Of a stretch of DNA of 64,000 nucleotides, positions 33,069 to 51,947 are shown piece by piece. Both the position numbers and the translations under genes were made by a program. The first letter of the stretch is position 1, and each line of letters opens with the position of its first letter. This DNA comes from Gammaproteobacteria bacterium (GTDB lineage: Bacteria > Pseudomonadota > Gammaproteobacteria > Steroidobacterales > Rariloculaceae). The notes beneath the pieces were generated by a model that saw only the letters and a list, made by a program, of their open reading frames with translations, did not search any database and was not told where the DNA came from. Location of the stretch: NCBI GenBank assembly GCA_963664945.1, contig OY761822.1, positions 661,732 through 725,731 on the forward strand, written 5' to 3'.

Positions 33069-33151
33069 TGTCCCAGCCCTGTCCGGTGCTGGAGAGCGGC
33101 CCGGATTTCGAGCCGCGCAAGCGCGTAGACAGTGACGAGTGTTGTGCCGCG

Positions 33152-34850: not shown

Positions 34851-34897
34851 ATCGGCCATGCGAATGGATCGGTCGGCGTTGGGAAAGCTCAGCCGCG
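34823..34897. repeat. 75-bp repeat flanking the 3' end of the DUF4351-like ORFs (copy 1 of 2)
   Basis: ggcggctgatcgcccggccc...gatcggccatgcgaatggatcggtcggcgttgggaaagctcagccgcgtcagc recurs at 37788-37862 with few mismatches. Confidence 0.8.
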
Positions 34898-35521: not shown

Positions 35522-35593
35522 GCCGCTCAGGTCGTCCGGTGCCTTATCTTGCGTACTCACCAGGCACCATAGGCCTTCGCGAGCGGCCGCAAT

Positions 35594-36097
35594 ATGGGCA
35601 AATCCGGTGACTATGGCGGGATATCGCCGAAATCTGAATGCGGGGAGCTGGGGCCAGGCGACATCGGCGTGAGCGGCATCGGGACCGTCGCCGCAGCCAA
35701 CGTCGTGCCCGAGAACCGGCCGCCGGACGAGTCCTTTTTCGTGGTGTCCATGTACGCGCGGTGGATGATGCCCCATCCGATAACGGGAAGCCCGTGGTCC
35801 GTCGGGGCGTCGGACGTGTCGGCGCACCGGATCATTTCCGACCTGTCGGCCTTCATCAGTCATGTGGACCCGTCGAAGCACCGCATCCTGGCCGCCGGTG
35901 ACTTGAACATGATTTACGGGGCGAACGCAGGCTCGCTCTCGCTCGTGGACCGGGAGCGCACGGTCTGGGCGCGAATGGAGGCGCTGGGACTCGAGTTCAT
36001 CGGTCCGCTGCTTCCAAACGGCCGGGCGGCAAACTCGCCGCCGCCGGATGCGCCCGGCGATACGAAGAACGTTCCAACGTACCGCACGGCGCAGTAA
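35594..36097 (+). pseudogene. Internal fragment of an EEP-family gene
   Basis: ...FFVVSMYARW...HRILAAGDLNMIYG... (GDxN motif). Lacks the N-terminal LQE and the C-terminal SDH motifs. Confidence 0.55.
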
Positions 36098-36366
36098 TCT
36101 CCGGCGGATGCGGACTATTTCGACCGACACCATCGGCTGAATTGACGTCCTTGGCCCCATTGACGGAACTGCTGCAATTCGTCCGACAGCGTCGGACGAA
36201 TCGATTTCGCGATGGAAGGTCTCAAATCTCTGCGGCACGCAGTGGCCGCGGCGCTTGAAGCAAGCGCCTATTGGGGCAATACGCCGTGTATTGGAGAGAC
36301 GCCCAAGTAGTTTTTCGAAGGCCCCGACGCGCCCCCTGATCGTATCGGTACGAGTACCGCACTGCG

Positions 36367-36981
36367 TCAGCTTGGGTGCGTGTCGGCCCAATCGATACTG
36401 CCGAGCAACTGCTCGCCGGTCTCGCAATCCACTATCAGGTCTCCCACGCGGTCCAAGAGACCTGGATCGTCAATGTTTTCCAGCCTGGCGCCAAGACCGC
36501 GCCCGATGTCGGCACCGAAGCGCCGCGCCGCTTGCCGAACCAGCATAGAACGCTCGTGCGCAAACGCCTGTCGTCTGCCGTCTGCGAGACCTTCCGCGAG
36601 ACCTTCCGCGTATACCTCCCGGCGATAACGTTTCAGCCAGCGGTCGGTGTTCCTCTCAAGTACTGATTGTTCCGCCATCAGTTCCTCCAATTTTCTGTCG
36701 CGGTCCGGGTCCCAGCCACGCGGCCGGAGCCTTGGCTCGATCACGTAGAGCCAGTCCAGGTAGCACTGGTACAGACGCGCCTCGTCGTCGTCCCCGAAGT
36801 CCAGCCAATCGCACAGGTCGGCGAGCAGGCGGTTGGCGCCAAATGCTGACTCCGCGAACGTCAAACCAGCCAGCGCCGCCATGCGGTTGCCCCGTTCGGG
36901 ATACTGCGTCGCTACGGTCCGCAAATCAAGCCGCGCATAGCGACGTCCGGCGAGCCACGGCAGGGGATGAGCGGTGGGCAT
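36367..36981 (-). CDS. DUF4351/Rpn-C-terminal-like paralogue, copy C
   Basis: MPTAHPLPWLAGRRYARLDLRTVATQYPERGNRMAALAGLTFAES...DDEARLYQCYLDWL...LVRQAARRFGADIGRGLGARLENIDDPGLLDRVGDLIVDCETGEQLL. Confidence 0.6.
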   Translation of the reverse strand: MPTAHPLPWLAGRRYARLDLRTVATQYPERGNRMAALAGLTFAESAFGANRLLADLCDWLDFGDDDEARLYQCYLDWLYVIEPRLRPRGWDPDRDRKLEELMAEQSVLERNTDRWLKRYRREVYAEGLAEGLADGRRQAFAHERSMLVRQAARRFGADIGRGLGARLENIDDPGLLDRVGDLIVDCETGEQLLGSIDWADTHPS

Positions 36982-37125
36982 TCGTTACCGCAAGGGTCAC
37001 ATCGACATCGAGCGGCTGATGACGCGCCTGGAATCCCTTATGCCCTACGACCACGCCGAATTCGCGGACAACGCAGTGAACGAGTACGCGCTGCTATTAT
37101 CCGTACTGAAGAAGATTCCCTGACG

Positions 37126-37787: not shown

Positions 37788-37862
37788 GGCGGCTGATCGC
37801 CCGGCCCGTCTGGAGATCGGCCATGCGAATGGATCGGTCGGCGTTGGGAAAGCTCAGCCGCG
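37788..37862. repeat. 75-bp repeat flanking the 3' end of the DUF4351-like ORFs (copy 2 of 2)
   Basis: Matches 34823-34897. Here its left side abuts a minus-strand EEP C-terminal remnant (...LDYTVWDENKADYVNAIQAGLSDHEP). Confidence 0.8.
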
Positions 37863-38519
37863 TCAGCTTGAGTTCAAACCGGCACCGTCGATACCCGCGA
37901 GCAACTGCTTGCCGGTTTCGCAGTCCACAATCAGCTCGCCCACACGGTTCAAAAGACCCGGATCGTTAACGTTTTCCAGCCTGGCGCCGAGACGCTGTCC
38001 GGTGTCGGCGCCGAAGCGCCGCGCCGCCAGTCTAACGAGTTCTTCCCGCCGGCCGTCGGCGAATGCGTCGCGGCGGTGACTTTCCAACCAACGGTCGGTG
38101 TTCCTCTCAAGTGCCGATACTTCCCTCATTAGTTCCTCCACTTTGCGTTCGTGCTCCGGGTCCCAGTCGCGCGGGCGGAGCGTCGGCGTGACCGCGTAGA
38201 ACCAGTTCACGTAGCAACGGTACAGGCGCTCCTCATCCTCGTCCCCGAAATCCAGCCATTCGCCCACTTCCTTTAGCAGGTGGATGGCGTCGAAGGGCGA
38301 CTCGGCGAACATCAGCCGCGCCAGCGCGGCCATTCGGTTGCCACGCTTGGGATACTGCGTCGCCGGGTCCCGCATATCAAGCCGCGCGTAGCGTTCCAGC
38401 CACCGATCAGTGTTCCGCTGCAGTACGGATAATTCCTCCATCAACTCCTCCATCTTCCTGTTGCGGTCCGGGTTGCGATATTTGAACGGTTCCGGGAGCA
38501 TTCGGATATTACGTCGCAA
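37863..38519 (-). CDS. DUF4351/Rpn-C-terminal-like paralogue, copy D (chimeric N-terminus)
   Basis: Contains the ...EELM.E.S.L.RNTDRWLE.. segment twice. A partial copy is fused to RYARLDMRDPATQYPKRGNRMAALARLMFAES..., indicating inter-copy recombination. Confidence 0.55.
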   Translation of the reverse strand: MRRNIRMLPEPFKYRNPDRNRKMEELMEELSVLQRNTDRWLERYARLDMRDPATQYPKRGNRMAALARLMFAESPFDAIHLLKEVGEWLDFGDEDEERLYRCYVNWFYAVTPTLRPRDWDPEHERKVEELMREVSALERNTDRWLESHRRDAFADGRREELVRLAARRFGADTGQRLGARLENVNDPGLLNRVGELIVDCETGKQLLAGIDGAGLNSS

Positions 38520-38540: not shown

Positions 38541-39455
38541 ATGCCCGAGCGTCCCGAAAATTCATACCCGATAATCGAAATCCAGCCGGAGTGGGTGATC
38601 TCGGAAGAGGACATGGGCAGCAAACCCAAGTTCTGGTATCGGGCATCTACTGATGAACCGGAATGGCTTTTCAAATACCCGCAACGCAACACGGGCCAGC
38701 ATTGGTCGGAAAAGATCGCAGCCGAACTGGCCAACGCCATCGGTATTCCGCACGCACCGGTCGAGTTGGCGAAATTTCAGGGTTGCCGCGGTTCGGCTAC
38801 CGAATCGTTCATGCAGGACGACCGCGAGTTGGCTCACGGTAACCAGGTGTTGGCCGGGCAACTGCTCGACTATGATCCCGACAAGCAATTCCGGCAATCG
38901 GATCACACACTCGAAAACATTTTTGCCTCATTGGAGCGGGTCTTCACCTCCGAACACGGCGTTTCGCGGGCAAAGCGTCGGGTCGCCGACTACGTTGTCC
39001 TCGACGCTTTGATAGGCAACACCGACCGGCATCACGAAAACTGGGGTATCTTGCGCAAAGTCGATCCTCAGCAAGAGCCGGAGACCGTGGCCCCGACATT
39101 CGATCACGCGTCATCTCTGGGCCGCGAGCTTCGCGATGAAGGAACCGGCAAGAGCAGGAGGCGATTTCTTGACGAGGGCCGGATCGCGAGCTATTCAGAA
39201 GCCGGGCGAGGCGCAATCTACTGGCAATCGTCGAGCAAGAAAGGTCCCAGCCCGCTGGAGCTTCTCCGGTGTGCCGCCGAGCGGTACCCCGATACATTTC
39301 GACCAGGGCTGGCTCGACTTGAAGACTTGCATGGAGACTCCCTGCGCCTTATCGTCGCACGCATCCCCGAGACTTGGATGAGTGATCCAGCGCGAACGTT
39401 TGCCGTCGAATTGATGTCCTACAACCTGCAACAGATCAAGAGTATCTCGACATGA
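38541..39455 (+). CDS. Stand-alone HipA C-terminal-like Ser/Thr kinase domain protein
   Basis: 304 aa. MGSKPKFWY (phosphate-binding-loop-like), DALIGNTDRHHENWGIL (catalytic loop), APTFDHASSLG. No HipA N-terminal subdomain. Confidence 0.75.
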   Translation: MPERPENSYPIIEIQPEWVISEEDMGSKPKFWYRASTDEPEWLFKYPQRNTGQHWSEKIAAELANAIGIPHAPVELAKFQGCRGSATESFMQDDRELAHGNQVLAGQLLDYDPDKQFRQSDHTLENIFASLERVFTSEHGVSRAKRRVADYVVLDALIGNTDRHHENWGILRKVDPQQEPETVAPTFDHASSLGRELRDEGTGKSRRRFLDEGRIASYSEAGRGAIYWQSSSKKGPSPLELLRCAAERYPDTFRPGLARLEDLHGDSLRLIVARIPETWMSDPARTFAVELMSYNLQQIKSIST

Positions 39456-40186
39456 CCGAAAAGACTCTGTTTCTTGCCTGGCAGGACAAGCGTCCGGTCG
39501 GGAAATGGTTTCCCATCGGGCGGCTTGACGTACAAGCGGGCAGGCCAGCTTATCGTTTTCGTTATACGAAGGGCGCCGAACGCGCCCGCGCGTCCGTCGG
39601 GTTTCATGCGCTTCTGGACTTTCCGAAACTGCACAGGACATATGAATCGTCTGAACTGTTTCCGCTGTTCGGCAACCGCGTAATGTCTCCCCGTCGGCCC
39701 GATTACCCAGCGCACATGAACATGCTCGGTCTCCCCGATACGGCCGAGCCGATCGAAGCCCTGTACACGAGCGGCGGGTATCGCGTGACCGACAACTATC
39801 AGGTTTTTCCCAGAATTGTGCGAGGTCCAGGCGGCTTCTTCAGATGCCGTTTTTTCCTTGATCCCGTTCCTTTCGCCGAATCGTTCGAGACGCGGTGGAT
39901 TGACTCCCTCAACGAAGGCGATGACTTGCTCGTCGACGTCAATCCGGCGACTTCAGTCGTACACATCAAGACCGAGTACGGGAAGGTGATCGGTTCTCCG
40001 CCACGCTACCTGGTCGAAGATCTGATCCGCGCCACGGAAGCGTGTCCGGGTGAGTACAACGCCAAAGTGGTGAAATTCAACCTGCCACCGGCACCTTCCC
40101 GTCGGCAGATCTTGATGGAACTCGCCGGCCACTGGCCTGATTATGAGCCGATGTCAGACACTGACTACCAGCCGCTAGTTCATTGA
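39452..40186 (+). CDS. HipS/HipA-N-terminal-like domain fused to a HIRAN-like domain (inferred)
   Basis: ATGA overlap with the kinase gene. N-terminus LFLAWQDKRPVGKWFPIGRLDV..YRFRYTKGA...SSELFPLFGNRV. C-terminus LNEGDDLLVDVNPATSVVHIKTEYGKVIGSPPRYLVEDL. Called from remembered family patterns only. Confidence 0.5.
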   Translation: MTEKTLFLAWQDKRPVGKWFPIGRLDVQAGRPAYRFRYTKGAERARASVGFHALLDFPKLHRTYESSELFPLFGNRVMSPRRPDYPAHMNMLGLPDTAEPIEALYTSGGYRVTDNYQVFPRIVRGPGGFFRCRFFLDPVPFAESFETRWIDSLNEGDDLLVDVNPATSVVHIKTEYGKVIGSPPRYLVEDLIRATEACPGEYNAKVVKFNLPPAPSRRQILMELAGHWPDYEPMSDTDYQPLVH

Positions 40187-40249
40187 GATGGACGGCAACG
40201 CTACCGCAGTTTTTCAAAATTGAGAGTGGGCGAAGGGTATCTGACTCAT

Positions 40250-40553: not shown

Positions 40554-43241
40554 ATGAAACAGGAGAAGATCACCCTCGCCCAGCTCGAGTCCTTCCTACT
40601 TAAGGCCGCCGACATCCTACGCGGCAAGATGGACGCCTCCGAATTCAAGGAGTTCATCTTCGGTATGCTGTTCCTGAAGCGGCTCTCCGACGAGTTCGAC
40701 TGCAAACGCGAGCAACTCCGAACGAAGACCTTCGCACATCTCCGAGAACAGCCGGACCTCGTCGCCGACCTGCTTGAGGACAAGATATCCTACGGAGAGA
40801 CCTTCTTTGTTCCCGTCAGAGCCCGTTGGCACGCGTCATGGCGAGACGAGAACGGCGATCTCGTGCCGGCCATGAAGGACCTCAAGCACGACATCGGCAA
40901 CATGCTCAACAAGGCCATCGCGGCCATTGAGGACGAGAACGATGCCCTGGCCGGTGTGCTGAAGAACAACATCGATTTCAACGCCGTGAAGGGCAAGACC
41001 AAGATCCCGGACCAGAAGTGGAAGGACCTGCTCGACCACTTCAGCCAGCCCGGGTTCGTCCTCGTCAACGACAACTTCGAGTTCCCGGACTTGCTCGGCG
41101 CCGCCTACGAATATCTCATCAAGTTCTTCGCCGACAGCGCCGGCAAGAAAGGTGGCGAGTTCTATACCCCCGGCGAAGTCGTCCGCCTGCTCGTCCAGCT
41201 CACCCAGCCGGAGGCCGGTAACACGATTTACGACCCCTCGGTCGGTTCCGGTGGATTCCTCATTCAGGCCCACCAGTACGTGGAAGAGCAAGGCCAAAAC
41301 GCCGACGATCTTGCTCTCTACGGTCAAGACTCCAATGGCACCGTTTGGTCGATCTGCATCATGAACATGATCCTCCACAACATCACCCGTTCCACAATCG
41401 AGAACGGGGACACGCTGGAGGACCCGCTCATCCTCGAAAATGGGCAGATTCGGAAGTTCGACCGTGTGCTCGCCAACCCACCGTTCTCGCAGAACTACAG
41501 CCGCGCGAGCATGAAGTTCACCAGTCGATTTCGCGAGTGGTGCCCGGAGACCGGCAAGAAGGCGGACCTCATGTTCGTACAGCACATGCTCGCCAGTCTC
41601 AAGCTCAACGGCCGCATGGCGACGATCATGCCGCACGGGGTCCTGTTTCGTGGTGGCAAGGAAAAGCTCATTCGCGAGCTGTTCATCAACGACGACTGTA
41701 TCGAGGGCATTGTCAGCCTGCCGCCCGGGCTCTTCTACGGCACGGGCATCCCCGCCTGCGTGCTGGTCTGCAACAAGAACAAGCCCGACGAATTCAAGGA
41801 TAGGGTCCTCTTCATCAACGCCGATCGCGAATACGCGGAGGGCAAGAACCAGAACCGGCTTCGCCCAGAGGACATCGAGAAGATCGATTTCGTCTTCACT
41901 CACAAGCGCGAGTTACCCAAGTACTCGCGCCTCGTGCCCAAGTCCGAGATCGTGGACATTCACGACTACAACCTCAACATCCGCCGCTACGTGGACAACA
42001 CGCCCGACCCCGAACCGGAGGATGTCCAGGCGCACCTCATCGGCGGAATCCCCGAGGTGGAGGTTGCCGCGCGCGCGGACGACTTCGCCAAGTTCGGCGT
42101 CGACACGGCTTCTCTCTTCAAACCCGAGCGTCCCGCCTACCTCGCCTTCCGCGAGTCCATCGACGCCAAGTCCGCCATCAAGTCCACGCTCGAAGCGGAC
42201 CCGGCCGTGCTGGACACACTCATCCGGCACCACGACGCGCTCGAATCTTGGTGGACTGTCGCAAGGGACGACTTCGCCCAACTCCAGCATGCGAGCAACG
42301 GCGGCAAGAAGATGCCCGAGGTCCGCCACGAGCTGCTCACCACCCTCAAGGCTAAGTTCGTGCCGCTGGGCGTGCTCGACGAGTTCAAGAGCGCCGGCGT
42401 CTTCGTCAACTGGTGGCAGCAGATTCGCTTTGACCTCAAGACCATCGTCTCCACCGGCTGGCACCACTCCCTGATCCCAGATGACTACTTCATCGCCGAA
42501 TTCTTCCAAGCCGAAGCCGACGCCAATGAGGCGCTCGAGGCAACCATCGCCGAAGCCCAGGGCGAACTGGCCGAGGCCGTCGAGACCGCCCAGGAGGTCA
42601 GCAGCTACGTGCCCGACGAGGACAAGAAAGTCAGCGCCGCCGTCATCAAGAAGGCGCTCAAGGCTCTCATTGACGACCTGAAAGACAGCGCCGGCGCTTC
42701 CGCCAGGAAGGAACTCAAGAACCTCACGGACCAAGACAAAGCCATCAAGGCCATCGAGAAGCGGATCAGGAACGCCAGGGCAACGCTGAAGGAAAAGGCT
42801 GCGGAGCTGGAATTCAAGCTCGAACTCAAGCGCCTCGGGTCCGGCGAGTTCAAGGCCGGGACCCAGGCGCTGATCGCGCAGGCCAATGACCGTCTTGCGG
42901 GGTTGGATCCGAAGAAGAAGGCCGACAAGAAGACCATCACCGCGCTCTACAAGGACAAGGAATCGCTGAATGCCCGACTGGCCCGGACTGACGCGGTGCT
43001 CAAGGCGATCGGCGGGCAGATCAGCGAGGCTGATGCACGCTGCCTGATCCTGAAGAAGATCTACGATATCGCCTGCGCCGAACTCGACCGCTATCTGAAT
43101 GCGGAGAAGCGGGTGCTCGCGGGAGTCGTCGAGAGCCTATGGGAGAAGTACGCCATCTCCGCAGATAAATTGGAGAGTGATCGAGCGAACACGGTCGCCA
43201 CGGTGGAAGGTTTCCTTTCGGGATTGGGATACTTGGCATGA
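40554..43241 (+). CDS. hsdM: Type I restriction-modification methyltransferase subunit M (long form)
   Basis: HsdM_N-like N-terminus ([14 protein letters not shown]), [27 protein letters not shown]. About 400-aa C-terminal helical extension. Confidence 0.9.
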
Positions 43242-44545
43242 CGCTGCCTGATGGGTGGAAACAGGGTCGCCTCGGCAAACTCTGTTCCATTGAGATCGGA
43301 GGTACGCCGTCACGGGGTGTTGCGGCGTATTGGGACACCACCCACGACACCTCGAATGTCTGGGTTTCGATCAGGGACATGCGTCAACGTTTAGTCACAG
43401 TATCGGCTGAGCAGATCTCTGATCTAGGCGTAAAGAAGTCCAACGTCAAGCTCCAGCAACCCGGCACGGTACTTCTCAGCTTCAAACTGTCCATCGGTCG
43501 CGTCGCCATTGCTGCTGTTCCTCTTTTCACGAACGAGGCAATCGCCGGACTGTCTCCGACTGGCCTGACGCGGGACTTTCTGTTTCACGGCCTCCAAGGA
43601 TGGAACTTGCTTCAGGGTGTGGATCAGGCAATCAAGGGCGCGACTCTCAACAAGCACAAGCTCAAGAAAATTCTGTTTGAGTACCCCGAGTCGGAACGCG
43701 AGCAAGCCAAGATCGCCGAGGTGCTTTCGTCGGTGGACCGGGCGATCGAGCAGACCGAGGCGCTCATCGCCAAACAGCAGCGTATCAAGACCGGCCTGAT
43801 GCAGGACCTGCTCACACGCGGCATCGACGAACACGGCAACCTGCGCTCGGAACAGGCCCACGAGTTTAAGGATTCTCCGATCGGCCGGATTCCGGTGGAG
43901 TGGGAGGTGATAACACTCGGGGCAATGCTGAAACGCGCACACGGGTATCTACAGACAGGCCCTTTTGGCAGCCAACTTCATGCACATGAGTACGTCCATG
44001 AGGGCACTCCCGTCATCATGCCCCAGGACATACTGAACGGGCAGATTTCGACCAGTGTGATTGCCAGGGTCCCTGAGCGACGGGCAAACGACTTGCATCG
44101 CCATCGTCTTCTGCCAAATGACATCGTGTTCTCACGACGCGGCGACCTTTCGCGAGCTGCCGGAATTGGTGAGCGAGAAGCTGGATGGATATGCGGCACG
44201 GGGTGCTTTCTCCTTCGAGTGTCACCAGACTCGATCGATTCAACTTGGCTCACCAATGTGTACCGCCACCATCATGTTCAGCGGCAGGTCGAGACGAATG
44301 CGGTGGGATCAACCATGCCGAGTCTGAACAATGCAGTAATGGAGAATCTGATTGTTGCGTTCCCCAAGGTCGACGAGCAGCAAGAAATTATGCGCCGATG
44401 TGATGCGGCAGCTGACAGTATCGCATCGACTCTTGATCAGCTTGCGAAGATGCGGGCGCTCAAGCGCGGCCTCATGCAGGACCTGCTCACAGGCAACCGC
44501 TGCGTGACTCCGCTGCTCGAACAATGCGAAGGGGTCGCGACATGA
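43238..44545 (+). CDS. hsdS: Type I R-M specificity subunit S
   Basis: Two variable regions separated by conserved helices (...[21 protein letters not shown]... and ...[18 protein letters not shown]). ATGA overlap with hsdM. Confidence 0.9.
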
Positions 44546-44575
44546 GCAGCTGCACCGGATACGGAGATCCAGCAG

Positions 44576-46285
44576 ATGTGGCTCCGTGAACTGCAGATCC
44601 GAAACTTCCGAAAGATCGACGCACTCACTGTGAATTTTCCGCGCGGTCTGACGGTGTTGGTTGGGGAGAATAACTCCGGTAAGACGACGATCATTGATGC
44701 ACTGCGTCTCATGTTGTTTTCAAGCCGGGAGTTCGATTCCCTCCGGCTTACGGAGGATGACTTCCGAACCGGAACCGACCACGCACCGATCGAGATTTCC
44801 TGCCGATTCACCGGACTTGAAGATGACGACGAAGTCCACTTTCAAGAGTGCCTCGTTGATATCGATGATGGCAAGTTCGAGATGCAGGTCAATGCCCGCG
44901 TTGAATTTAACGAGACGACGAATCGGTGCAACGTGAAAATGTGGGGTGGCGAGACGGAAGGCGGCTCACTTCCATCGAACCATTACGATCGACTTGCGAC
45001 GATCTACTTGCAGCCGCTGCGTGATCCCGAACGCGGCCTGCGGCCTGGACAGCATTCCCAAGTTTCCCGACTTATCGACTGCCTGACAAAGGAAGATCAG
45101 CGCGAAGACTTTGAAGCCATCGTCAGGGATGCAAATGAGGAGATCCGAGAGCTGAAGCCAGTCGAAGACGCAAGAGGCGACATCAATGCGCAGATGTCAG
45201 CTATCGCAGGTAGCGAATTGACCCAAAAAACGGAGCTGATTTTCGCCGACCCGACTTTCCGTCGCATCATCGCAGGGCTGCAGCCTGAGATTGACGGACT
45301 ACCGTTTGCCCTCAATGGGCTCGGGTACAACAACTTGATCTTCACATCCGCGACTTTGGGCACGCTCCGGCGGAGCCCACAGTTCTCATTCCGTTCAATC
45401 CTGGTCGAGGAGCCCGAAGCGCACCTGCACCCTCAGTTACAGATGCTCCTTCTCAGGCATTTGGCTGTTGTTGCCAGCGATCACGAAGGTAATGAAGTGC
45501 AGGTCATCGCGAGCAGCCACTCTCCTATTCTAGCGAGTCAGGCTCCAATCGACTCGGTCGTATCGGTTCATGAAGTTGATGGCAAGGTCAGCACAGTCTC
45601 GGTGTGTTGCATCACGATTGACGACAAGATCAAGAAGAAGCTCCAGCGGTATCTCGATGCGACCCGTGGGGAACTGTTTTTCGCCCGGCGCATCTTGATG
45701 GTGGAGGGGATCGCGGAGGCACTGCTGCTCCCTGAGCTGGCCAAAATTTCAGGTGGCAATCTGAAGGAGTCGGCAGTGACCGTTCTGAACGCGGATGGAA
45801 TCAACTTTAACGCGTTCATTCCATTGTTTGGAGTGGAAGAGCTTGGTGTGCCGGTCGTCATTCTCACAGACGGTGACGCGAAGGTTGTCGGTGGAGAGAT
45901 GTCGGCGACTGCCTCACACTTGAAGGAACAGGCAGCCGGGATTCCGAATTTGAATGTCGAGATGTCGGAGATCACCTTTGAGCATGAGCTTGCTCGCTCG
46001 GAAATGCTGCTTCCGCACATGGTGTCTGCGCTCAAAGAACTACATCCCATCATTGGAACAACGCTCGAAACCAAGCTCGCAACGGTTGCGACCGTGGAGG
46101 AGAAGGCCAAGAAATTTTTGGACGTGTTCATTGAGAAGTCGGTCTCGAAAGGCCGGTTTGCGCAGGAACTCGCCGAGATCTTGGCGGACTGTAATCTCGG
46201 GGCCAACGCCGTACCCGAGTACATCCGCATCGCGCTGAGGCATCTTGGAGTTCTGAGTGAGCCGGCAATCGATGGCCACAGCTAA
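44576..46285 (+). CDS. OLD-family ATP-dependent endonuclease (GajA-like, ABC-ATPase plus Toprim)
   Basis: LQIRNFRKIDALTVNF..LTVLVGENNSGKTTIIDAL, ILVEEPEAHLHP, Toprim ILMVEGIAEALLLP and VVILTDGDA. Confidence 0.8.
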   Translation: MWLRELQIRNFRKIDALTVNFPRGLTVLVGENNSGKTTIIDALRLMLFSSREFDSLRLTEDDFRTGTDHAPIEISCRFTGLEDDDEVHFQECLVDIDDGKFEMQVNARVEFNETTNRCNVKMWGGETEGGSLPSNHYDRLATIYLQPLRDPERGLRPGQHSQVSRLIDCLTKEDQREDFEAIVRDANEEIRELKPVEDARGDINAQMSAIAGSELTQKTELIFADPTFRRIIAGLQPEIDGLPFALNGLGYNNLIFTSATLGTLRRSPQFSFRSILVEEPEAHLHPQLQMLLLRHLAVVASDHEGNEVQVIASSHSPILASQAPIDSVVSVHEVDGKVSTVSVCCITIDDKIKKKLQRYLDATRGELFFARRILMVEGIAEALLLPELAKISGGNLKESAVTVLNADGINFNAFIPLFGVEELGVPVVILTDGDAKVVGGEMSATASHLKEQAAGIPNLNVEMSEITFEHELARSEMLLPHMVSALKELHPIIGTTLETKLATVATVEEKAKKFLDVFIEKSVSKGRFAQELAEILADCNLGANAVPEYIRIALRHLGVLSEPAIDGHS

Positions 46286-48026
46286 TCAACTCCGGGAGAG
46301 GATTCTCGCGCAGAACCCGACAGATGAGCAGAGGGAGGCCATCTTTGCTGAGGAGTTGGAGTTTCTATTGCGCGCAGCTCCTGGAAGCGGCAAAACCTGG
46401 ACGTCATGCCGACGCTTTATCTGGAGAGCGGCCAACTGGCCTCATCTTGTTGGGGGACTGGCTCTCCTGTCGTTCACAAACGCTGCCATCCGCGAGTTCA
46501 AGACCGCCACGATCAACGTAGGGCGAAGAGACCTCCTATCCGATCCGAACTACGTCGGTACGTTTGACTCGTTCGTTGAACGTTACATTCTCTCACCGTT
46601 TGGCCACCTGCTTACCGGCGCTGACAAGCGGCCAAGGCTATTTCCAGGCCCACGTCCGGGCGACTGGAACAATGGGCAACTGAAAGTGTGGATGGACGGC
46701 AGGGGCGGTCGCAGGATTCCCGTTCCGGCATGGGAAGTCATACCCTTTCCGGATGGCACCAAGGTCCGCTTCAAGGCGTCGCCTACCTTCGGGAGTCAGC
46801 CCATTGCCGCCGCCGCGCCTGTATACCAACTTCTGTCTCTGGGCTTTTACACTCATGCGCAACGCATTTATTGGGCATGGAAACTCCTGATCGAGAGACC
46901 ACACATCGCGAAGCTGCTTGCCAAGCGATTCCCGGAAATCATCGTCGATGAAGCACAGGACACGAATGCCTGGCTCTTGATTCTCTTAAATCTTTTGCGT
47001 GACAAGGGAGCAAAGATCACGCTCATCGGTGACCCTGACCAGTGCATATTCGAGTTCAGCATGGCGGATGCGACTTCGTTGCCCAAATTAAGGACGAAGT
47101 GGTCAATTCCAGAATTGCCCCTGAGTAAGTCGTTTCGTTGTAACAACCAGATTGCGGCAGCCGTCCGTAACGTGGGCGGAAACACAGACTTCACCGGGGT
47201 CGGTGATGGAGCAACCGAATGGCGCCGGGCATTTGTGGTCAAACAAGCGTCGACGACATTCTCTAATGGCCTAGCGGCGTTCCAACGTCTAGCAGATCAG
47301 GCTGGAGTGAGCCTCAACTCCGCTGCCGTCGTCTGCCGAGCGCATAGGCAACTGGAATCATTGCGTGGCAAGCTGAACTATAACAATCTAAAGGGCAAGG
47401 CAAAGGAACTGGCTAAGGCGGCGTTTCTTCGTGATTCTCGACACGATTACCGTGGGGCGTTTCAATCCGTCGAGCGTATCGTGCGCGAACTGACAGGTGA
47501 CGATCCTCTGTGGGAGCGCATCGATACCGACCCAAATTCACGCGAGCGCATGGCTGTGGCATTGGCAATTTGGAAGTTCGTAAAAAGTCCGGACCGATTA
47601 ACACCAGTATCTCAGCTTGGTGACACATGGATTCCTTCCATGCGAACGCAGTTGACGAGCTTAATCGAGGAAATCGGCTTGCAATGTGATGCGAAGCTCG
47701 GGCACCACATCAAGACAACCGGACTCTCCGCCGCTCAGAAGGCTCTGCCGCTCTTCGAATCGGTCCATGAGTTCCCGGAAGTGCGGCAGGACACGATTCA
47801 CCAGGTGAAAGGCGAGAGTATCGAAGCGGTGCTGGTTGTCGGCAGTCCAAAATTCTGGAACTCCGTGATGGCGGCGGTACGAGATGGCGACAACACGGAA
47901 GATCGACGGCTGGCGTATGTGGCGATGACGCGAGCTCGCCACCTGCTTGTCGTCGGCTTACCGAAGGGACACTACGACAAGCACTTAAAAACTTGGTTGG
48001 AGTGGGGCTTCAGGGTGGCGAAGTGA
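46257..48026 (+). CDS. UvrD/PcrA-like SF1 helicase (GajB-like)
   Basis: AAPGSGKTW, FTNAAIREF, IIVDEAQDTN, SFRCNNQI, IHQVKGESIEAVLVV, LAYVAMTRARHLL. Start may be ATG 46272. Overlaps the OLD gene. Confidence 0.75.
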   Translation: MSRQSMATANQLRERILAQNPTDEQREAIFAEELEFLLRAAPGSGKTWTSCRRFIWRAANWPHLVGGLALLSFTNAAIREFKTATINVGRRDLLSDPNYVGTFDSFVERYILSPFGHLLTGADKRPRLFPGPRPGDWNNGQLKVWMDGRGGRRIPVPAWEVIPFPDGTKVRFKASPTFGSQPIAAAAPVYQLLSLGFYTHAQRIYWAWKLLIERPHIAKLLAKRFPEIIVDEAQDTNAWLLILLNLLRDKGAKITLIGDPDQCIFEFSMADATSLPKLRTKWSIPELPLSKSFRCNNQIAAAVRNVGGNTDFTGVGDGATEWRRAFVVKQASTTFSNGLAAFQRLADQAGVSLNSAAVVCRAHRQLESLRGKLNYNNLKGKAKELAKAAFLRDSRHDYRGAFQSVERIVRELTGDDPLWERIDTDPNSRERMAVALAIWKFVKSPDRLTPVSQLGDTWIPSMRTQLTSLIEEIGLQCDAKLGHHIKTTGLSAAQKALPLFESVHEFPEVRQDTIHQVKGESIEAVLVVGSPKFWNSVMAAVRDGDNTEDRRLAYVAMTRARHLLVVGLPKGHYDKHLKTWLEWGFRVAK

Positions 48027-48078
48027 TGGATGCCAGAACCCAACCTGACAAACAACGATGCTGTTACAGGATTAGAGC

Positions 48079-51000
48079 ATGACGGCCACGTTGCCCAAGC
48101 AAATCAAGCTGGACGAACGCAACCACGTCGAGAAGCCGTTGCTCGACCAGCTTGCGGGCTTGGGTTGGGAGGTCATCGACCTGACGTACATGAAGCAGAC
48201 TCCGGCGGAGACGCATCGGGGGAGGTTCACCGAGGTCGTGATGGCGCCGGTCCTGCGCGAGCGGCTCGAAGTCATCAACCCCTGGCTCCAAGACGATCAG
48301 GTCGAGGAGGTTGTCAAGCAGCTCACCGCAAGCTTCCCGAGCACCGGATTGCTGGGGAACAACAAGCACCTGTTCCAGCTCCTTCTGGAGAACACCAGCG
48401 TCAGCGAGAACCGCCAAAGCGGCGAGAAGAGCCCGACCGTCCGCTTCGTGGACTTCACGAATCGTGACAACAACCGCTTCATTGCGGTCTGCCAGTTCAA
48501 GGTCCGCGTCCTCGGCACCGAGCATCACATCATCCCCGATGTCGTGCTGTTCCTCAATGGCCTGCCGGTGGTGGTGATCGAGTGCAAATCGCCCAAGGTC
48601 AAGGACGCGATTCCCGAGGCGATCGATCAGCTTCTCCGCTACAGCGAGCAGCGCGGGGCCACGGGGGAAGGGAATGCGCCGCTCTTCTACTACAACCAGT
48701 TCGTCGTGGCGAGCTGCCGGCAGGAAGCCAAGTTCGGCACCATCACCACGCACACCGAGAAGCACTTCTACCGCTGGGCCGACCCGTATCCACAAACCGT
48801 GGACGATCTGGACCACGGCTCAAGCAGCCCCAACGACCAGCAACGTCTTGTCGCCGGCATGCTCGACCGGGACAACCTGCTCGACCTGATTCGGACCTTC
48901 ACGCTGTTCTCGACGAATGACAAAGGCCAGACGATCAAGATCGTCGGCCGCTACCAACAGTTCCGCGCAGTGAAGCGGGCGGTGAAGCGGCTGCTCGAAG
49001 GCCGCAATCCCCGCGAGCGTAGCGGCATCATCTGGCACACCCAGGGTTCCGGCAAGTCGCTCACGATGATGTTCATGGTTCGGGAGATGTACCGCCACGC
49101 ACAGCTCTCGAACTGGAAGGTCGTCTTCATCACTGACCGCACCCAGTTGGAACAGCAACTCTCCGAGACCAGTCAGAGCATCGGCTTCACGGTGAAACTG
49201 GCCGACAGCATCAAGGGGCTCAAGAAACTACTAAGGGCAGACACCTCCGACTTGGTGATGGCGATGATCCACAAGTTCCGCGAGGCAGACTTGACCGTGA
49301 CTTTTCCGGAGCTGAACGCCAGCCCCAACATCCTCGTAATGACCGACGAGGCCCACCGATCGCAGTACAGGCTGCTCGGGGCCAACCTCGACAAGGGCCT
49401 CCCGAACGCCGCCAAGATCGGCTACACGGGCACGCCGATCGACAAGACCGAGCAGGTCTTCGGCGACTATATCGACAAGTACACGATGCGCCAATCCATC
49501 AAGGACGGCGTGACGCTGGAGATCGTTTACGAGGGCCGCACGCACAACGCCGAGGTCCCCGACCGGACCAGTATGGACGCTGCATTCGAGGACGTGTTCA
49601 GCGACTACGACATCCAGCAGCGTCTGGACATCCTCGGGTACGGATCGCGTGACGCCTATCTCGAAGCAGAACCCACCATCAAGGCCAAGGCCAGAGACAT
49701 GGTGGAGCACTACCTCGCGCATGTGTTCCCCAACGGCTACAAGGCGCAGGTGGTGGCGACGTCACGCGAGGCGGCCGTGCGCTACAAGAAGCACCTGGAC
49801 GCCGCGCTCGCGGCGGCGGTCGCAGAACTGGAACAGGCCAACACGGGCAAGCTGGACCTGGACCGGCTCAAGGCGATGAAGACGGACGTCGTGATCTCCG
49901 GAAGCCACAATGACCGGCCCCATCTCAAGGAGCATTCCGACTCATCGCGGCACGAGGCGAGCATCAAGAGCTTCAAGCTGTCGTTCGGCGGTGAAGAGGA
50001 CGGTGTCAACGGAGACATCGGCATCCTGATCGTCAACAACATGCTGCTAACCGGCTTCGATGCGCCGGTCGAACAGGTGATGTATCTCGATAAGGTCGTA
50101 GTTGCCCACAACCTTCTGCAGGCTATCGCCCGTGTTAACCGCGTGGGCGACGAATCCAAGGACAAGGGCTTCGTGGTGGACTATGTCGGCATCGGCCACC
50201 ACCTCAAGAAAGCGATCGACACCTACGACGAGCGCGAGCGGAAGGAGATCATCGACGCCTTGAGCTTCCCCGAGGAGGAGTTGCGGGAACTCCAGGACGC
50301 CCACGCCGCCGTGATGGAGTTGCTCGAGGAGCACGGGCTCACTGACATGACGGATCACGACGCCTTCTACGACATGTTCTACGACGAGGATCTCCGCTTT
50401 GACTTCATGCTGGCATTCAAGCGGCTGACCAAGGCGCTCAATCTCCTGTTCCCGGCCCGCCAGGCCCTTGATTTCATGGGTGATTACAATGCGCTCGCCG
50501 AGATCAATGTGCTCGCCGGGAAGCACTTCCGCGACCAGCGGCTAAGCATGAAGGGGATCCCGGCGAAGCTTCGTGCAATCACGGATGCTCACCTCGAGTC
50601 CCGGGGCATCGATGTCAAGGTCCCGCCAATCTCGATCCTTGACGAGGATTTCGAGAAGGGTGTCGGCGAGCACCGCCGCACCAAGACCAAGGCGGCCGAG
50701 ATCGAGCACGCGATCCGCCATCACCTCGACGTAGACCTGGACGATGATCCGGACCTGCGCGCTTCCTTCGCCGAAGCCCTGGCGGCCATCTTTGAGCAGT
50801 TCCGCGACAACTGGAACAAGATCTACGAAGAACTGGAGAAGCTGCGGACGCGAATCATCAAGGCCAGCAACGAACCAACGTACGGATTGCATCGAAAAAA
50901 GCAAATGCCATTCTTTCGAATGTTACGGCGTGAGCTGTTCGGTGCGGATAAGCCAATCGTCGATCCGTCTCAGGTGGCTGAAGAGCATGCTGTCTATGGA

Positions 51001-51258
51001 ATCGACGATGAAGACCGAATCAGCTACCTCGTAGATTTAACTCAGAAAATTACTCTCGTTATCGAGAGAGAGCTGAAATTGACTGGATTCTGGGAGAGCA
51101 TTCCGGCCCGCAACAAGCTGAAAGCAGAGATCCAAAAAATCCTGCTCGCTCCTGAGTTTGCCAAAGTGCCCGACCTCATCGAGAATCGCGCGCATATTAT
51201 TAGTCGAATTATGGAAATCGCCGAAAAGAACAACGACACAATTATTTTCGCGAACTAG
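48079..51258 (+). CDS. hsdR: Type I restriction enzyme R subunit
   Basis: IPDVVLFLNGLPVVVIECK nuclease motif, HTQGSGKSLTM, VMTDEAHRSQ, GYTGTPI, LLTGFDAP, QAIARVNR. Confidence 0.9.
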   Translation: MTATLPKQIKLDERNHVEKPLLDQLAGLGWEVIDLTYMKQTPAETHRGRFTEVVMAPVLRERLEVINPWLQDDQVEEVVKQLTASFPSTGLLGNNKHLFQLLLENTSVSENRQSGEKSPTVRFVDFTNRDNNRFIAVCQFKVRVLGTEHHIIPDVVLFLNGLPVVVIECKSPKVKDAIPEAIDQLLRYSEQRGATGEGNAPLFYYNQFVVASCRQEAKFGTITTHTEKHFYRWADPYPQTVDDLDHGSSSPNDQQRLVAGMLDRDNLLDLIRTFTLFSTNDKGQTIKIVGRYQQFRAVKRAVKRLLEGRNPRERSGIIWHTQGSGKSLTMMFMVREMYRHAQLSNWKVVFITDRTQLEQQLSETSQSIGFTVKLADSIKGLKKLLRADTSDLVMAMIHKFREADLTVTFPELNASPNILVMTDEAHRSQYRLLGANLDKGLPNAAKIGYTGTPIDKTEQVFGDYIDKYTMRQSIKDGVTLEIVYEGRTHNAEVPDRTSMDAAFEDVFSDYDIQQRLDILGYGSRDAYLEAEPTIKAKARDMVEHYLAHVFPNGYKAQVVATSREAAVRYKKHLDAALAAAVAELEQANTGKLDLDRLKAMKTDVVISGSHNDRPHLKEHSDSSRHEASIKSFKLSFGGEEDGVNGDIGILIVNNMLLTGFDAPVEQVMYLDKVVVAHNLLQAIARVNRVGDESKDKGFVVDYVGIGHHLKKAIDTYDERERKEIIDALSFPEEELRELQDAHAAVMELLEEHGLTDMTDHDAFYDMFYDEDLRFDFMLAFKRLTKALNLLFPARQALDFMGDYNALAEINVLAGKHFRDQRLSMKGIPAKLRAITDAHLESRGIDVKVPPISILDEDFEKGVGEHRRTKTKAAEIEHAIRHHLDVDLDDDPDLRASFAEALAAIFEQFRDNWNKIYEELEKLRTRIIKASNEPTYGLHRKKQMPFFRMLRRELFGADKPIVDPSQVAEEHAVYGIDDEDRISYLVDLTQKITLVIERELKLTGFWESIPARNKLKAEIQKILLAPEFAKVPDLIENRAHIISRIMEIAEKNNDTIIFAN

Positions 51259-51947
51259 TGACGATGGATATTTCCTACTCGATAAAACGATCTTCAAAGC
51301 GAACCAAGGTTACGATCACTATCGAGCGTGACAGAAAAGTTGTTGTGCACGCTCCGAATCATGCGTCCGATGAAACTATTGCGCGAGTAGTCGAAGCCAA
51401 GCAGCATTGGATCTACCAGAAAACGCAGCATAGCCAAAAATACGCGCGCCAGCCTCATCCGCCTGGCAAAGAGCTCGTTAATGGTGAGTCCGCACTATAT
51501 CTTGGGCGAAGCTACCGTATCGAAGTCGTCGACACAAAGACGAAATGTATTCGGTTTGATCAGCGTTTTCTGATTCCAGCATCGCACGCGCGTCACAAGA
51601 AGGGTGCCATGCGAGAGTGGTATATCGCGCGAGCAAAGGAACGAATTCTACCTCGCGTGGTGAAGCAGGCTCGGGAACTAGGCGTTTCCTACGGGCAGGC
51701 GCGCATCGTTGATAATCGATATCGGTGGGGCTCATGCACAGTTCGCAACAACATCAACCTGAACTGGCGGTTGATTAAGGCACCAATGTTTGTCGTCGAT
51801 TACGTAATCGCCCATGAGCTCGCCCACCTTTTGGAGTCGAACCATACGCCGCGATTCTGGAATATAGTGAAAACACAGGTACCCACCATGGACAAAGCGC
51901 GTGACTGGCTAAGGGAGCATGGTCAACTCCTTGAGGAAGAGGTCTAG
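51258..51947 (+). CDS. DUF45 / M48-like (YgjP-type) metal-dependent hydrolase
   Basis: RWGSC...L.LNWRLIKAP..VVDYVIAHELAHLLE.NH. Overlaps the hsdR stop. A typical R-M accessory gene. Confidence 0.8.
   Translation: MTMDISYSIKRSSKRTKVTITIERDRKVVVHAPNHASDETIARVVEAKQHWIYQKTQHSQKYARQPHPPGKELVNGESALYLGRSYRIEVVDTKTKCIRFDQRFLIPASHARHKKGAMREWYIARAKERILPRVVKQARELGVSYGQARIVDNRYRWGSCTVRNNINLNWRLIKAPMFVVDYVIAHELAHLLESNHTPRFWNIVKTQVPTMDKARDWLREHGQLLEEEV

What the first reader, a model, noticed from the sequence alone, without database searches (positions are those of the whole stretch)
38541..40186. Permuted, split HipA: kinase-only gene coupled to a HipS-like/HIRAN-like gene, with no HipB
Seen in sequence:
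- The 304-aa ORF carries only HipA C-terminal kinase signatures (GSKPKFW, LIGNTDRHHENWG, FDHASSLG).
- Its stop overlaps the ATG of a 244-aa ORF (ATGA).
- That ORF's first ~110 aa (LFLAWQD..PVGKWFPIGRLDV..YRFRYTKGA..ELFPLFGNRV) resemble the HipA N-terminal coupling subdomain.
- Its last ~110 aa (LNEGDDLLVDVNPAT..IKTEYGKVIGSPPRYLVEDL) resemble a HIRAN fold.
- No XRE/HipB-type gene is adjacent.

Established knowledge:
- In HipBST the separately encoded N-subdomain homologue HipS neutralises the kinase HipT.
- HIRAN domains bind DNA 3' ends.

Inference: this is a kinase toxin held in check by a partner that senses free or damaged DNA ends, i.e. an abortive-infection module. The gene order (kinase first) is the reverse of hipS-hipT. 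The pair sits directly upstream of a Type I R-M/Gabija-like island. I do not know of a characterised system with this layout.
Basis: partly seen in the sequence, partly recalled or inferred. Interest (0 to 1): 0.8.

Follow-up and report, generated by a model that had tools for sequence, protein, structure and literature searches.

The report
HipI kinase with HipS-HIRAN partner

Summary
ORF1 (38541-39455, 304 aa) is a core HipA-family kinase without the N-terminal subdomain. Its stop overlaps the start (ATGA) of ORF2 (39452-40186, 244 aa). By predicted structure, ORF2 is a HipS-like domain followed by a HIRAN-like domain. No HTH gene is adjacent. A type I R-M operon with Gabija inside it follows.

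The claim of novelty does not hold. This layout is the hipIN module of Gerdes et al. 2021 (HipI kinase plus HipN). Both proteins match PADLOC candidate PDC-M03 (A 2.8e-89, B 3.8e-60), one of 145 untested candidates found by "guilt-by-embedding".

New comparative evidence:
- All 58 kinase-selected loci with enough downstream DNA carry an intact partner.
- About 43 of 77 partner-selected loci keep an intact kinase. This fits kinase = toxin and partner = antitoxin.
- The 4-nt overlap is conserved in 67 of 75 junctions.
- The pair recurs inside type I R-M operons and on small Vibrio viral elements.
- A few partner homologues sit next to Fic, NYN or DUF7002 genes instead of a kinase.

DNA-end sensing by the HIRAN domain is plausible but untested. 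This clade's HIRAN motifs are divergent.

The parts
38541..39455 (+). hipI-type gene: 304-aa core HipA-family Ser/Thr kinase lacking N-subdomain-1 (putative toxin)
   Evidence: Pfam HipA_C 7.4e-17, residues 26-192. PADLOC PDC-M03A 2.8e-89, full length. 3743 homologues at E<=1e-3, the best about 300 aa. The kinase part of a related model best matches CtkA (TM-score 0.74-0.77 normalised to the target, E 4e-11), then HipA and HipT.
38616..38636 (+). Gly-rich (ATP-binding) loop G26-S27-K28-P-K30-F31-W32. S27 is a candidate autophosphorylation site.
   Evidence: G26, S27, K28, K30, F31 and W32 are invariant in 37 homologues. The role of S27 is inferred from the HipI description in PMC8262856.
39018..39044 (+). 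Catalytic loop N160-T-D162-R-H-H-E-N167-W168
   Evidence: N160, T161, D162, R163, H164, H165, E166 and W168 are invariant; N167 is conserved in at least 90%. This stretch aligns with the CtkA catalytic loop GNFDRHNGNWG.
39099..39122 (+). F187-D188-H-A-S-S-L-G194, the Mg-binding / activation-segment motif
   Evidence: D188 is conserved in at least 90%; F187 and H189-G194 are invariant. Aligns with CtkA 'FDCGSCL'.
39452..39455 (+). ATGA start/stop overlap (translational coupling)
   Evidence: Read directly from the sequence. The same 4-nt overlap occurs in 67 of 75 junctions in kinase-selected metagenome loci. Spacing is also tight in genome loci.
39452..40186 (+). hipN-type gene: 244-aa two-domain partner (putative antitoxin/sensor)
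   Evidence: PADLOC PDC-M03B 3.8e-60, full length. 925 homologues at E<=1e-3. 1672 clusters at 50% identity, and the best 150 are nearly all about 250 aa matched end to end.
39452..39787 (+). HipS-like N-terminal domain (about residues 1-112)
   Evidence: AF2 model with pLDDT 84.9. Foldseek matches HipS of L. pneumophila HipS-HipT (7vkb_B, 8ezr_A), probability 1.00, TM-score 0.70-0.75 normalised to the target. 1 of 43 homologues hits Pfam Couple_hipA weakly at 0.0025.
39788..40183 (+). HIRAN-like C-terminal domain (about residues 113-244), divergent in this clade
   Evidence: Foldseek matches the HLTF HIRAN domain (4xzg, 4s0n, 4xzf, 6kcs), probability 1.00, TM-score 0.50-0.55 normalised to the target. 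36 of 43 homologues hit Pfam HIRAN, best 3.1e-9, but not this protein. The window clade has a 4-residue gap at the family's 'ELTNP' motif and has 'LDPVPFA' where the family has 'LHGWRHV'.
40554..51947 (+). Neighbouring defence operon, not part of the module: hsdM, hsdS, gajA, gajB, hsdR and a YgjP-like peptidase
   Evidence: Pfam and PADLOC hits. This island is absent at this position in the closest relative genome.

Best explanation
The two genes form a hipIN-type module, which is the same thing as PADLOC candidate PDC-M03.

Proposed mechanism:
- ORF1 is a HipI-class core Ser/Thr kinase that acts as a growth-arresting toxin. By analogy with HipA and HipT, it probably phosphorylates a component of translation such as an aminoacyl-tRNA synthetase.
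- ORF2 (HipN) is made together with it through the ATGA overlap.
- ORF2's N-terminal HipS-like domain binds and neutralises the kinase in trans. In effect it supplies the N-subdomain-1 that HipA carries in cis.
- ORF2's C-terminal HIRAN-like domain is the regulatory or sensor part. Binding of a nucleic-acid cue that appears during phage infection, most likely free 3' DNA ends or ssDNA, or loss of HipN, would free the kinase and cause abortive infection or dormancy.

Shown here:
- the domain identities;
- intact catalytic motifs;
- tight, conserved coupling of the two genes;
- dependence of an intact kinase on an intact partner, but not the reverse;
- a mobile, defence-island distribution.

Inferred:
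- toxicity;
- neutralisation through the HipS-like domain;
- the kinase's target;
- the trigger.

My graded confidence:
- membership of hipIN / PDC-M03: about 0.9;
- kinase as toxin and HipN as antitoxin: about 0.7;
- anti-phage role triggered through the HIRAN domain: about 0.3.
For: - Domains: HipA_C in ORF1. PDC-M03A and PDC-M03B full-length hits. Confident ORF2 model matching HipS and HLTF HIRAN. 36 of 43 homologues hit Pfam HIRAN. Kinase fold closest to CtkA, then HipA and HipT.
- Catalytic residues are invariant across homologues.
- Published description of hipIN with the same domain logic.
- Gene coupling: the kinase lies immediately upstream in 67 of 80 partner-selected genome loci. 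The 4-nt overlap occurs in 67 of 75 junctions.
- Polarity: 58 of 58 kinase-selected loci with enough downstream DNA have an intact partner. Only about 43 of 77 partner-selected loci have an intact kinase; about 20 are truncated, frameshifted or stopped and 13 have none. Fisher p lies between 1e-10 and 5e-9.
- In the closest relative genome the kinase is 5'-truncated and lacks the Gly-rich loop, while hipN is intact. dN/dS is 0.15 for hipN and 0.34 for the kinase remnant.
- Defence context: the pair lies next to type I R-M plus Gabija in the window. It is embedded as hsdM-hsdS-pair-hsdR, or followed by hsdR, in at least 14 of 80 genome loci and about 10 of 80 metagenome loci. It is also on integrase-bearing Vibrio viral elements.
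- PDC candidates were derived from exactly such embedding.
Against: - I found no experiment on any hipIN or PDC-M03 member. The PDC set is explicitly untested.
- ORF2 itself has no significant sequence match to HIRAN, Couple_hipA or any PDB chain.
- In the window's clade the family's conserved HIRAN-region motifs are altered, so DNA-end binding may be changed or lost.
- A single-chain proxy model of kinase plus partner gave pTM of only 0.61, so the interface is not resolved.
- The apparent natural fusions look like frameshift or deletion products, not genuine Rosetta-stone fusions.
- The two locus sets come from different collections. Some 'degraded' kinases in long-read MAGs could be assembly errors, although truncations and absences cannot be.
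- Partner homologues also occur alone or next to Fic, NYN or DUF7002 genes. The partner is therefore not strictly a kinase-specific antitoxin.
Confidence: 0.6

Rival explanations
1. It is a classical addiction (post-segregational killing) toxin-antitoxin module that stabilises the genomic island. The HIRAN-like domain replaces HipB as the DNA-binding part used for autoregulation, and no phage sensing is involved.
For: - There is no HipB/HTH gene, yet type II TA operons normally need a DNA-binding autoregulator.
- The toxin/antitoxin asymmetry fits this reading equally well.
- The region is rich in other TA remnants: FitA-like RHH and ParD in the window; MazE-Fic, Phd-PIN and Zeta-like genes in the relative.
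Against: - Studied HIRAN domains bind DNA ends, not specific operators (PMC8262856).
- No inverted repeat or promoter-like signal was found upstream of the kinase. The scans are crude, so this is weak evidence.
- The recurrent embedding inside type I R-M operons and carriage on viral elements points to defence rather than simple addiction.
Confidence: 0.2
2. It is an accessory of the adjacent type I restriction-modification system. The kinase would stay latent while R-M works and be released when R-M is inhibited, or when restriction produces DNA ends. This would make it a second line of defence comparable to PrrC in the EcoprrI locus (that comparison is from memory).
For: - The pair lies directly upstream of hsdM in the window.
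- In L008, L010, L021, L022 and L043, and in L091, L097, L099, L152 and L161, it sits between hsdM/hsdS and hsdR.
- No terminator-like site was found between hipN and hsdM on the + strand.
Against: - At the sensitivity used, only about 12-18% of loci have a type I R-M neighbour.
- The closest relative carries the pair with no R-M next to it.
- The Vibrio elements also lack an R-M neighbour.
- The module is therefore autonomous, and embedding is a common address rather than a requirement.
Confidence: 0.1
3. It is not a toxin system. It is a signalling kinase with a DNA-damage-responsive adaptor, acting in repair or stress signalling.
For: - Eukaryotic HIRAN domains act in replication-fork repair.
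- The kinase's closest solved relative, CtkA, is not a classical TA toxin.
Against: - Distribution is patchy and mobile across many phyla.
- The strain-specific island context, frequent kinase decay with the partner retained and carriage by viral elements are not what a housekeeping repair pathway shows.
Confidence: 0.07

Closest known systems
hipIN module (HipI kinase + HipN putative antitoxin), Gerdes, Baerentsen and Brodersen 2021, mBio (PMC8262856)
   Same: - Short core Hip kinase (their range 279-321 aa; here 304 aa) lacking N-subdomain-1, with the Gly-rich loop near the N terminus.
- A downstream gene encodes a HipS-like domain followed by a HIRAN domain.
- No HipB.
- Kinase-first gene order.
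   Different: - Nothing differs in architecture.
- Their set held only 14 hipIN modules, from Actinobacteria, Firmicutes, Proteobacteria and Cyanobacteria.
- This member belongs to a much larger family seen mostly in MAGs.
- Its HIRAN region is divergent.
- I could not place it in their tree.
PADLOC phage defence candidate PDC-M03 (Payne et al., bioRxiv 10.1101/2024.01.29.577857)
   Same: - Both proteins match the A and B models over their full length.
- The two genes are adjacent, on the same strand, and next to or embedded in type I R-M.
   Different: None found. PDC-M03 is a candidate only. The paper lists the 145 PDCs as untested.
HipBST (E. coli O127, L. pneumophila)
   Same: - HipA is split into a kinase without N-subdomain-1 and a separate HipS-fold protein.
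- The ORF2 N-terminal domain superposes on L. pneumophila HipS (7vkb_B, 8ezr_A).
   Different: - There is no HipB.
- The gene order is reversed, with the kinase first.
- The HipS-like domain is fused to a HIRAN-like domain.
- The kinase is structurally nearer to CtkA than to HipT.
HipL kinases (PMC8262856)
   Same: The same three parts are present: kinase core, HipS-like domain and HIRAN domain, in the same order.
   Different: - HipL is one polypeptide from a single gene; here there are two overlapping genes.
- The long 'fusions' found near this family look like frameshift or deletion products.
CtkA (JHP0940) of Helicobacter pylori, PDB 3akj/3akk/3akl
   Same: - It is the closest solved structure to the kinase, both by sequence (E 1.4e-4) and by fold (TM-score 0.74-0.77 normalised to the target).
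- It has a similar size and the same catalytic loop.
   Different: It is described as a secreted proinflammatory kinase. I did not establish whether it has a HipS-HIRAN partner.

Membership tests
hipIN (HipI/HipN) of PMC8262856 | The kinase is a short core Hip kinase (279-321 aa) lacking N-subdomain-1, with the Gly-rich loop near the N terminus | tested here: met
   304 aa. HipA_C covers residues 26-192 with no Couple_hipA/HipA_N hit. The Gly-rich loop is at residues 26-32. Definition.
hipIN (HipI/HipN) of PMC8262856 | Conserved Hip kinase core motifs are present (Gly-rich loop, catalytic loop, Mg-binding / activation segment) | tested here: met
   G26-W32, N160-W168 and F187-G194 are invariant or nearly invariant in 37 homologues. 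They align with the CtkA catalytic residues.
hipIN (HipI/HipN) of PMC8262856 | [quoted passage not shown] | tested here: met
   AF2 model. Foldseek matches to HipS (7vkb_B, 8ezr_A) and HLTF HIRAN, probability 1.00. 36 of 43 homologues hit Pfam HIRAN. ORF2 itself is below Pfam threshold.
hipIN (HipI/HipN) of PMC8262856 | Phylogenetic placement of the kinase in a HipI subclade of main clade XI | not tested
   The reference sequences (Table S1) are truncated in the held copy before clade XI. HipA and HipT do not reach E 0.01 by sequence, whereas CtkA does. This is consistent with the distant branch but is not a placement.
hipIN (HipI/HipN) of PMC8262856 | The kinase is toxic and HipN neutralises it | not testable with these tools
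   There is only indirect support: 58 of 58 intact kinases have an intact partner, and about 43 of 77 intact partners have an intact kinase.
PADLOC PDC-M03 | Both component HMMs (A and B) hit adjacent genes on the same strand | tested here: met
   PDC-M03A 2.8e-89 (residues 9-302) and PDC-M03B 3.8e-60 (residues 1-242). The genes overlap by 4 nt.
HipBST | Tricistronic hipB-hipS-hipT operon with an HTH HipB, and hipS upstream of the kinase | tested here: not met
   No HTH gene is adjacent. The kinase precedes the HipS-like gene.
Canonical HipBA | Kinase of about 440 aa with N-subdomain-1 in cis, plus an upstream HipB | tested here: not met
   The kinase is 304 aa with only HipA_C. There is no HipB.
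HipL | Kinase, HipS-like and HIRAN domains in one polypeptide from a monocistronic gene | tested here: not met
   There are two ORFs in different frames. None of the best 150 family representatives is a kinase fusion.
HIRAN domain (Pfam PF08797) | Sequence match above the Pfam threshold | tested here: not met
   ORF2 has no hit at E<=1. 36 of 43 homologues at 48-60% identity do hit. hhalign against the HLTF HIRAN sequence (recalled from memory) gave probability 0.06%.
HIRAN domain (Pfam PF08797) | HIRAN fold | tested here: met
   Foldseek matches 4xzg, 4s0n, 4xzf, 6kcs and 3k2y, probability 1.00, E about 2e-3, TM-score 0.50-0.66 normalised to the target.
HIRAN domain (Pfam PF08797) | Residues that bind the DNA 3' end are conserved | tested here: inconclusive
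   No reliable residue-level alignment to HLTF was obtained. Within the family, the window clade differs at two conserved motifs: a gap at 'ELTNP', and 'LHGWRHV' replaced by 'LDPVPFA'.

The most novel reading that the evidence does not exclude
The HipS-HIRAN protein is not merely the antitoxin of one kinase. It would be a portable sensor/neutraliser cassette that can be paired with unrelated effectors: HipI kinase, Fic, NYN nuclease or DUF7002. It would be preferentially lodged inside type I R-M operons, where it reads a DNA-end or ssDNA signal linked to restriction or to its failure. The window's clade, with altered HIRAN motifs, would then have a changed ligand.
Probability: 0.18. Interest if true: 0.65.

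Novelty: new member of a known kind. Interest (0 to 1): 0.35.

Why it matters
If the proposed mechanism is right, hipIN would link a nucleic-acid-end sensor (HIRAN) to a translation-blocking kinase. That would be a new trigger logic for Hip toxins, and a case of an antitoxin domain (HipS) fused to a sensor. The layout itself is already in the literature and in PADLOC, so the value of this locus is as a well-contextualised, intact example for experiments. The comparative results here add to that: strict dependence of the kinase on the partner, conserved translational coupling, embedding in R-M operons, and partner swapping. These sharpen which experiments to do. For annotating the window, the pair should be labelled hipI/hipN (PDC-M03 candidate).

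Tried and rejected
- Sequence-level links of ORF2 to solved structures gave nothing meaningful. I tried phmmer, a full-length profile, a C-terminal profile, and hhalign against the HLTF HIRAN sequence recalled from memory.
- NCBIfam has no model for either protein.
- I tried to obtain HipI/HipN reference sequences from Table S1 of PMC8262856. The held copy is cut before clade XI, so there is no phylogenetic placement.
- I searched for natural kinase-partner fusions with a concatenated query. P0241, P0242, P0243 and P0252 are longer, but their junctions are garbled or deleted. I reject them as Rosetta-stone evidence.
- I used P0241 as a single-chain proxy for the complex. The domains fold (pLDDT 85.3), but pTM is 0.61 and the linker is disordered, so the interface is unresolved. 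Foldseek cannot test the permuted arrangement against HipA.
- Promoter, terminator and inverted-repeat scans around the pair gave nothing above chance.
- dN/dS against the closest relative suggests relaxation of the truncated kinase (0.34 against 0.15 for hipN), but the counts are too small to be significant.
- The viral-contig scan found only 6 relatives, so the module is not mainly phage-borne.
Full report
OBSERVATION

The kinase stop overlaps the second start as ATGA. All quoted peptide motifs are present.

ORF1 hits Pfam HipA_C (7.4e-17, residues 26-192). It has no N-terminal HipA domain hit.

No HTH/XRE gene is adjacent. The small flanking ORFs have no family hit. The nearest antitoxin-like DNA binders (FitA-like RHH at 34014-34244, ParD at 34448-34687) are about 4 kb away.

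Downstream lies a type I R-M operon with Gabija inserted between hsdS and hsdR. The order is HsdM 40554-43241, HsdS 43238-44545, GajA 44576-46285, GajB 46257-48026, HsdR 48079-51258 and a YgjP-like peptidase 51258-51947.

THE KINASE

A search found 3743 homologues, and the closest are all about 300 aa. In an alignment of 37, three motifs are invariant or nearly so:
- the Gly-rich loop G26-S27-K28-x-K30-F31-W32;
- the catalytic loop N160-T-D162-R-H-H-E-N-W168;
- F187-D188-H-A-S-S-L-G194.

By sequence, the only solved relative below E 0.01 is CtkA of H. pylori (1.4e-4), aligned through the catalytic loop. By fold, the kinase part of a related model matches CtkA best (E 4e-11, TM-score 0.74-0.77 normalised to the target). 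Next come HipA of S. oneidensis and E. coli, and HipT of L. pneumophila. ORF1 is therefore an intact core Hip-type kinase from the distant branch of the family.

THE PARTNER

ORF2 has no Pfam, NCBIfam or sequence-level PDB match of its own. It has 925 homologues. Of 43 aligned homologues at 48-95% identity, 36 hit Pfam HIRAN (best 3.1e-9) and one hits Couple_hipA weakly.

An AF2 model is confident (pLDDT 84.9, pTM 0.81). Its best PDB matches all have Foldseek probability 1.00:
- the HLTF HIRAN domain (4xzg, 4s0n, 4xzf, 6kcs);
- lp_0118 (3k2y);
- HipS from the L. pneumophila HipS-HipT complexes (7vkb_B, 8ezr_A; TM-score 0.70-0.75 normalised to the target).

In the C-terminal domain, the window protein and its four closest relatives in the alignment differ from the rest of the family. 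They have a 4-residue gap at the conserved 'ELTNP' and carry 'LDPVPFA' in place of 'LHGWRHV'. This explains the missing Pfam hit. It also leaves open whether DNA-end binding is retained.

WHAT IS ALREADY KNOWN

Gerdes, Baerentsen and Brodersen 2021 (PMC8262856) describe exactly this organisation as hipIN. It consists of a HipI core kinase followed by hipN, which encodes a HipS-like domain plus a HIRAN domain. They propose that the HipS-like part neutralises the kinase and that the HIRAN part may bind ssDNA. They found 14 such modules and list no experiment for clade XI.

PADLOC-DB holds the pair as candidate PDC-M03. ORF1 matches the A component at 2.8e-89 and ORF2 the B component at 3.8e-60, both over their full length. 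[quoted passage not shown]

PDCs come from 'guilt-by-embedding' in BREX, DISARM and type I R-M systems, and the 145 candidates are stated to be untested. A 2025 NAR paper notes HipA-HIRAN clusters next to diDNase genes in Actinobacteria, again without functional data. I found no experimental work on hipIN, HipL or PDC-M03.

COMPARATIVE EVIDENCE OBTAINED HERE

(a) Family size. The partner family has 1672 clusters at 50% identity with E<=1e-3 and 367 with E<=1e-30. The best 150 are nearly all about 250 aa matched end to end, so the two-domain architecture is the norm.

(b) Distribution and neighbours. A scan of one genome per species found 556 relatives across many phyla. These include Acidobacteriota, Gemmatimonadota, Latescibacterota, Binatia, Dehalococcoidia, Verrucomicrobiota and Gammaproteobacteria. 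In 67 of the best 80 loci a kinase homologue lies immediately upstream.

(c) Polarity. Among those 80 partner-selected loci:
- about 43 have an intact kinase;
- about 20 have a 5'-truncated, frameshifted or prematurely stopped kinase;
- 3 are at contig ends;
- 13 have no kinase.

In the reciprocal set of 80 kinase-selected metagenome loci, all 58 with a complete kinase 3' end and at least 760 nt downstream carry an intact partner. Fisher p lies between 1e-10 and 5e-9, depending on how possible assembly frameshifts are counted. An intact kinase is never seen without the partner, whereas the partner often outlives the kinase. This is the pattern expected if the kinase is toxic and the partner is its antidote.

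(d) Coupling. The 4-nt overlap is present in 67 of 75 junctions.

(e) Closest relative. A 3.7-Mb ENA contig shares window 38815-40196 at 94.5% identity. There the kinase is 5'-truncated (208 aa, without the Gly-rich loop) and abuts an AAA_21/RloB pair, while hipN is intact. dN/dS is 0.15 for hipN and 0.34 for the kinase remnant, on small counts.

(f) Defence context.
- The window's R-M/Gabija island is absent at that place in the relative, so it is a strain-specific insertion right after hipN.
- HsdR-like genes follow the partner on the same strand in at least 14 of 80 genome loci. In several loci the order is hsdM-hsdS-kinase-partner-hsdR.
- The metagenome set shows the same, with HsdM in 11 and HsdR in 10 of 80 loci.
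- The pair is also carried next to an integrase on roughly 14-kb Vibrio viral elements (Vinavirales) and on a few plasmids.
- It is rare in IMG/VR, with 6 loci.

MECHANISM

The best-supported reading is a toxin-antitoxin, abortive-infection-type module. The kinase would be a translation-directed toxin by analogy with HipA (target GltX) and HipT (target TrpS). The HipS-like domain would neutralise it in trans. The HIRAN-like domain would be the regulatory or sensing part.

Shown here: domain identities, intact catalytic motifs, coupling, asymmetric dependence, and mobile defence-linked distribution.

Inferred: toxicity, the binding mode, the target and the trigger.

The single-chain proxy model (P0241) did not resolve the interface (pTM 0.61).

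The rivals are:
- an addiction module in which the HIRAN domain acts as autoregulator;
- an accessory of type I R-M in the manner of PrrC (that comparison is from memory);
- a repair-signalling kinase.

The first cannot be excluded. The second is weakened because most loci have no R-M neighbour. The third fits poorly with the patchy, decaying, mobile distribution.

UNEXPECTED SIDE RESULT

In 11 well-flanked genome loci the partner homologue has no kinase within 2.5 kb. In three of them the abutting same-strand gene is a different candidate effector:
- L073: Fic, with a 4-nt overlap;
- L070: NYN;
- L059: DUF7002.

This hints that the HipS-HIRAN protein is a modular partner. I could not test whether these pairings recur.

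VERDICT

However, the layout is published (hipIN) and catalogued (PDC-M03). It is a new, intact, well-contextualised member of a known but experimentally untested kind. I score interest at about 0.35.

Noticed in passing
L073 5240-6004, L070 5373-5999, L059 5296-5967 (also L033, L039, L041, L042, L045, L063, L066, L080): Partner (HipN-like) homologues at about 48% identity occur with no Hip kinase within 2.5 kb. In three loci the abutting same-strand gene is a different candidate effector: Fic (2.1e-18, 4-nt overlap), NYN (4.4e-8) or DUF7002 (7.3e-68). The others appear solo.
   Followed up: partly
window 40554-51947; L008, L010, L021, L022, L043, L091, L097, L099, L152, L161: In the window, Gabija (gajA, gajB) is inserted between hsdS and hsdR of a type I R-M operon. 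In other genomes the kinase-partner pair occupies that same slot (hsdM-hsdS-pair-hsdR). This fits the 'guilt-by-embedding' idea.
   Followed up: partly
window 33054-33448, 34892-35543, 36364-36984, 37857-38393 (minus-strand ORFs 34898-36427, 36367-36981, 37863-38519): There are four paralogous segments similar (73-93% nt identity) to genes that carry Pfam Transposase_31 (Rpn/YhgA-like) in the closest relative. They alternate with small TA or defence cassettes, which suggests a recombination hotspot. The window ORFs themselves gave no Pfam hit.
   Followed up: partly
L082 9378-10004 (also L083 7215-7841): In the closest relative genome the kinase is 5'-truncated (208 aa, no Gly-rich loop) and abuts an AAA_21/RloB pair, while hipN is intact and 95% identical. 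Homology with the window ends 10 nt after the hipN stop.
   Followed up: yes
window 54913-56187 and 56171-56842: An AAA_21 ATPase (PADLOC AbiLi 4.2e-88) and an overlapping RloB-like protein (6e-31) form an AbiL-type pair. The same kind of pair lies directly upstream of the kinase remnant in L082.
   Followed up: no
window 52230-53879 (-): A 549-aa ORF lies in a low-GC patch (43% against about 60% around it). It has only a sub-threshold NPHP3_N (P-loop NTPase) hit and no PADLOC hit. It is possibly a recently acquired STAND-like defence gene.
   Followed up: no
window 34014-34244 (-) and 34448-34687 (+): A FitA-like RHH antitoxin gene (1.3e-10) and a ParD-type antitoxin gene (1.4e-4) have no obvious intact toxin partner in the ORF list. 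They are probably TA remnants.
   Followed up: no
L170 3036-4729 (Vibrio phage 10N.286.55.A12_PE001, PQ189359.1): The same kinase + HIRAN pair, with a 4-nt overlap, sits at the end of a roughly 14-kb Vinavirales element next to an integrase. Four such Vibrio cyclitrophicus elements carry it.
   Followed up: partly
P0241, P0242, P0243, P0252: Database 'fusion' proteins of kinase and partner have garbled or deleted junctions. This is consistent with frameshifts or deletions across the ATGA overlap, not with genuine fusions.
   Followed up: yes
window 39452-40186, residues about 136-175 of ORF2: The window's clade (5 of the aligned sequences) has diverged at two motifs in the HIRAN region that are otherwise conserved: a 4-residue gap at 'ELTNP', and 'LHGWRHV' replaced by 'LDPVPFA'. 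The ligand may have changed or been lost.
   Followed up: partly
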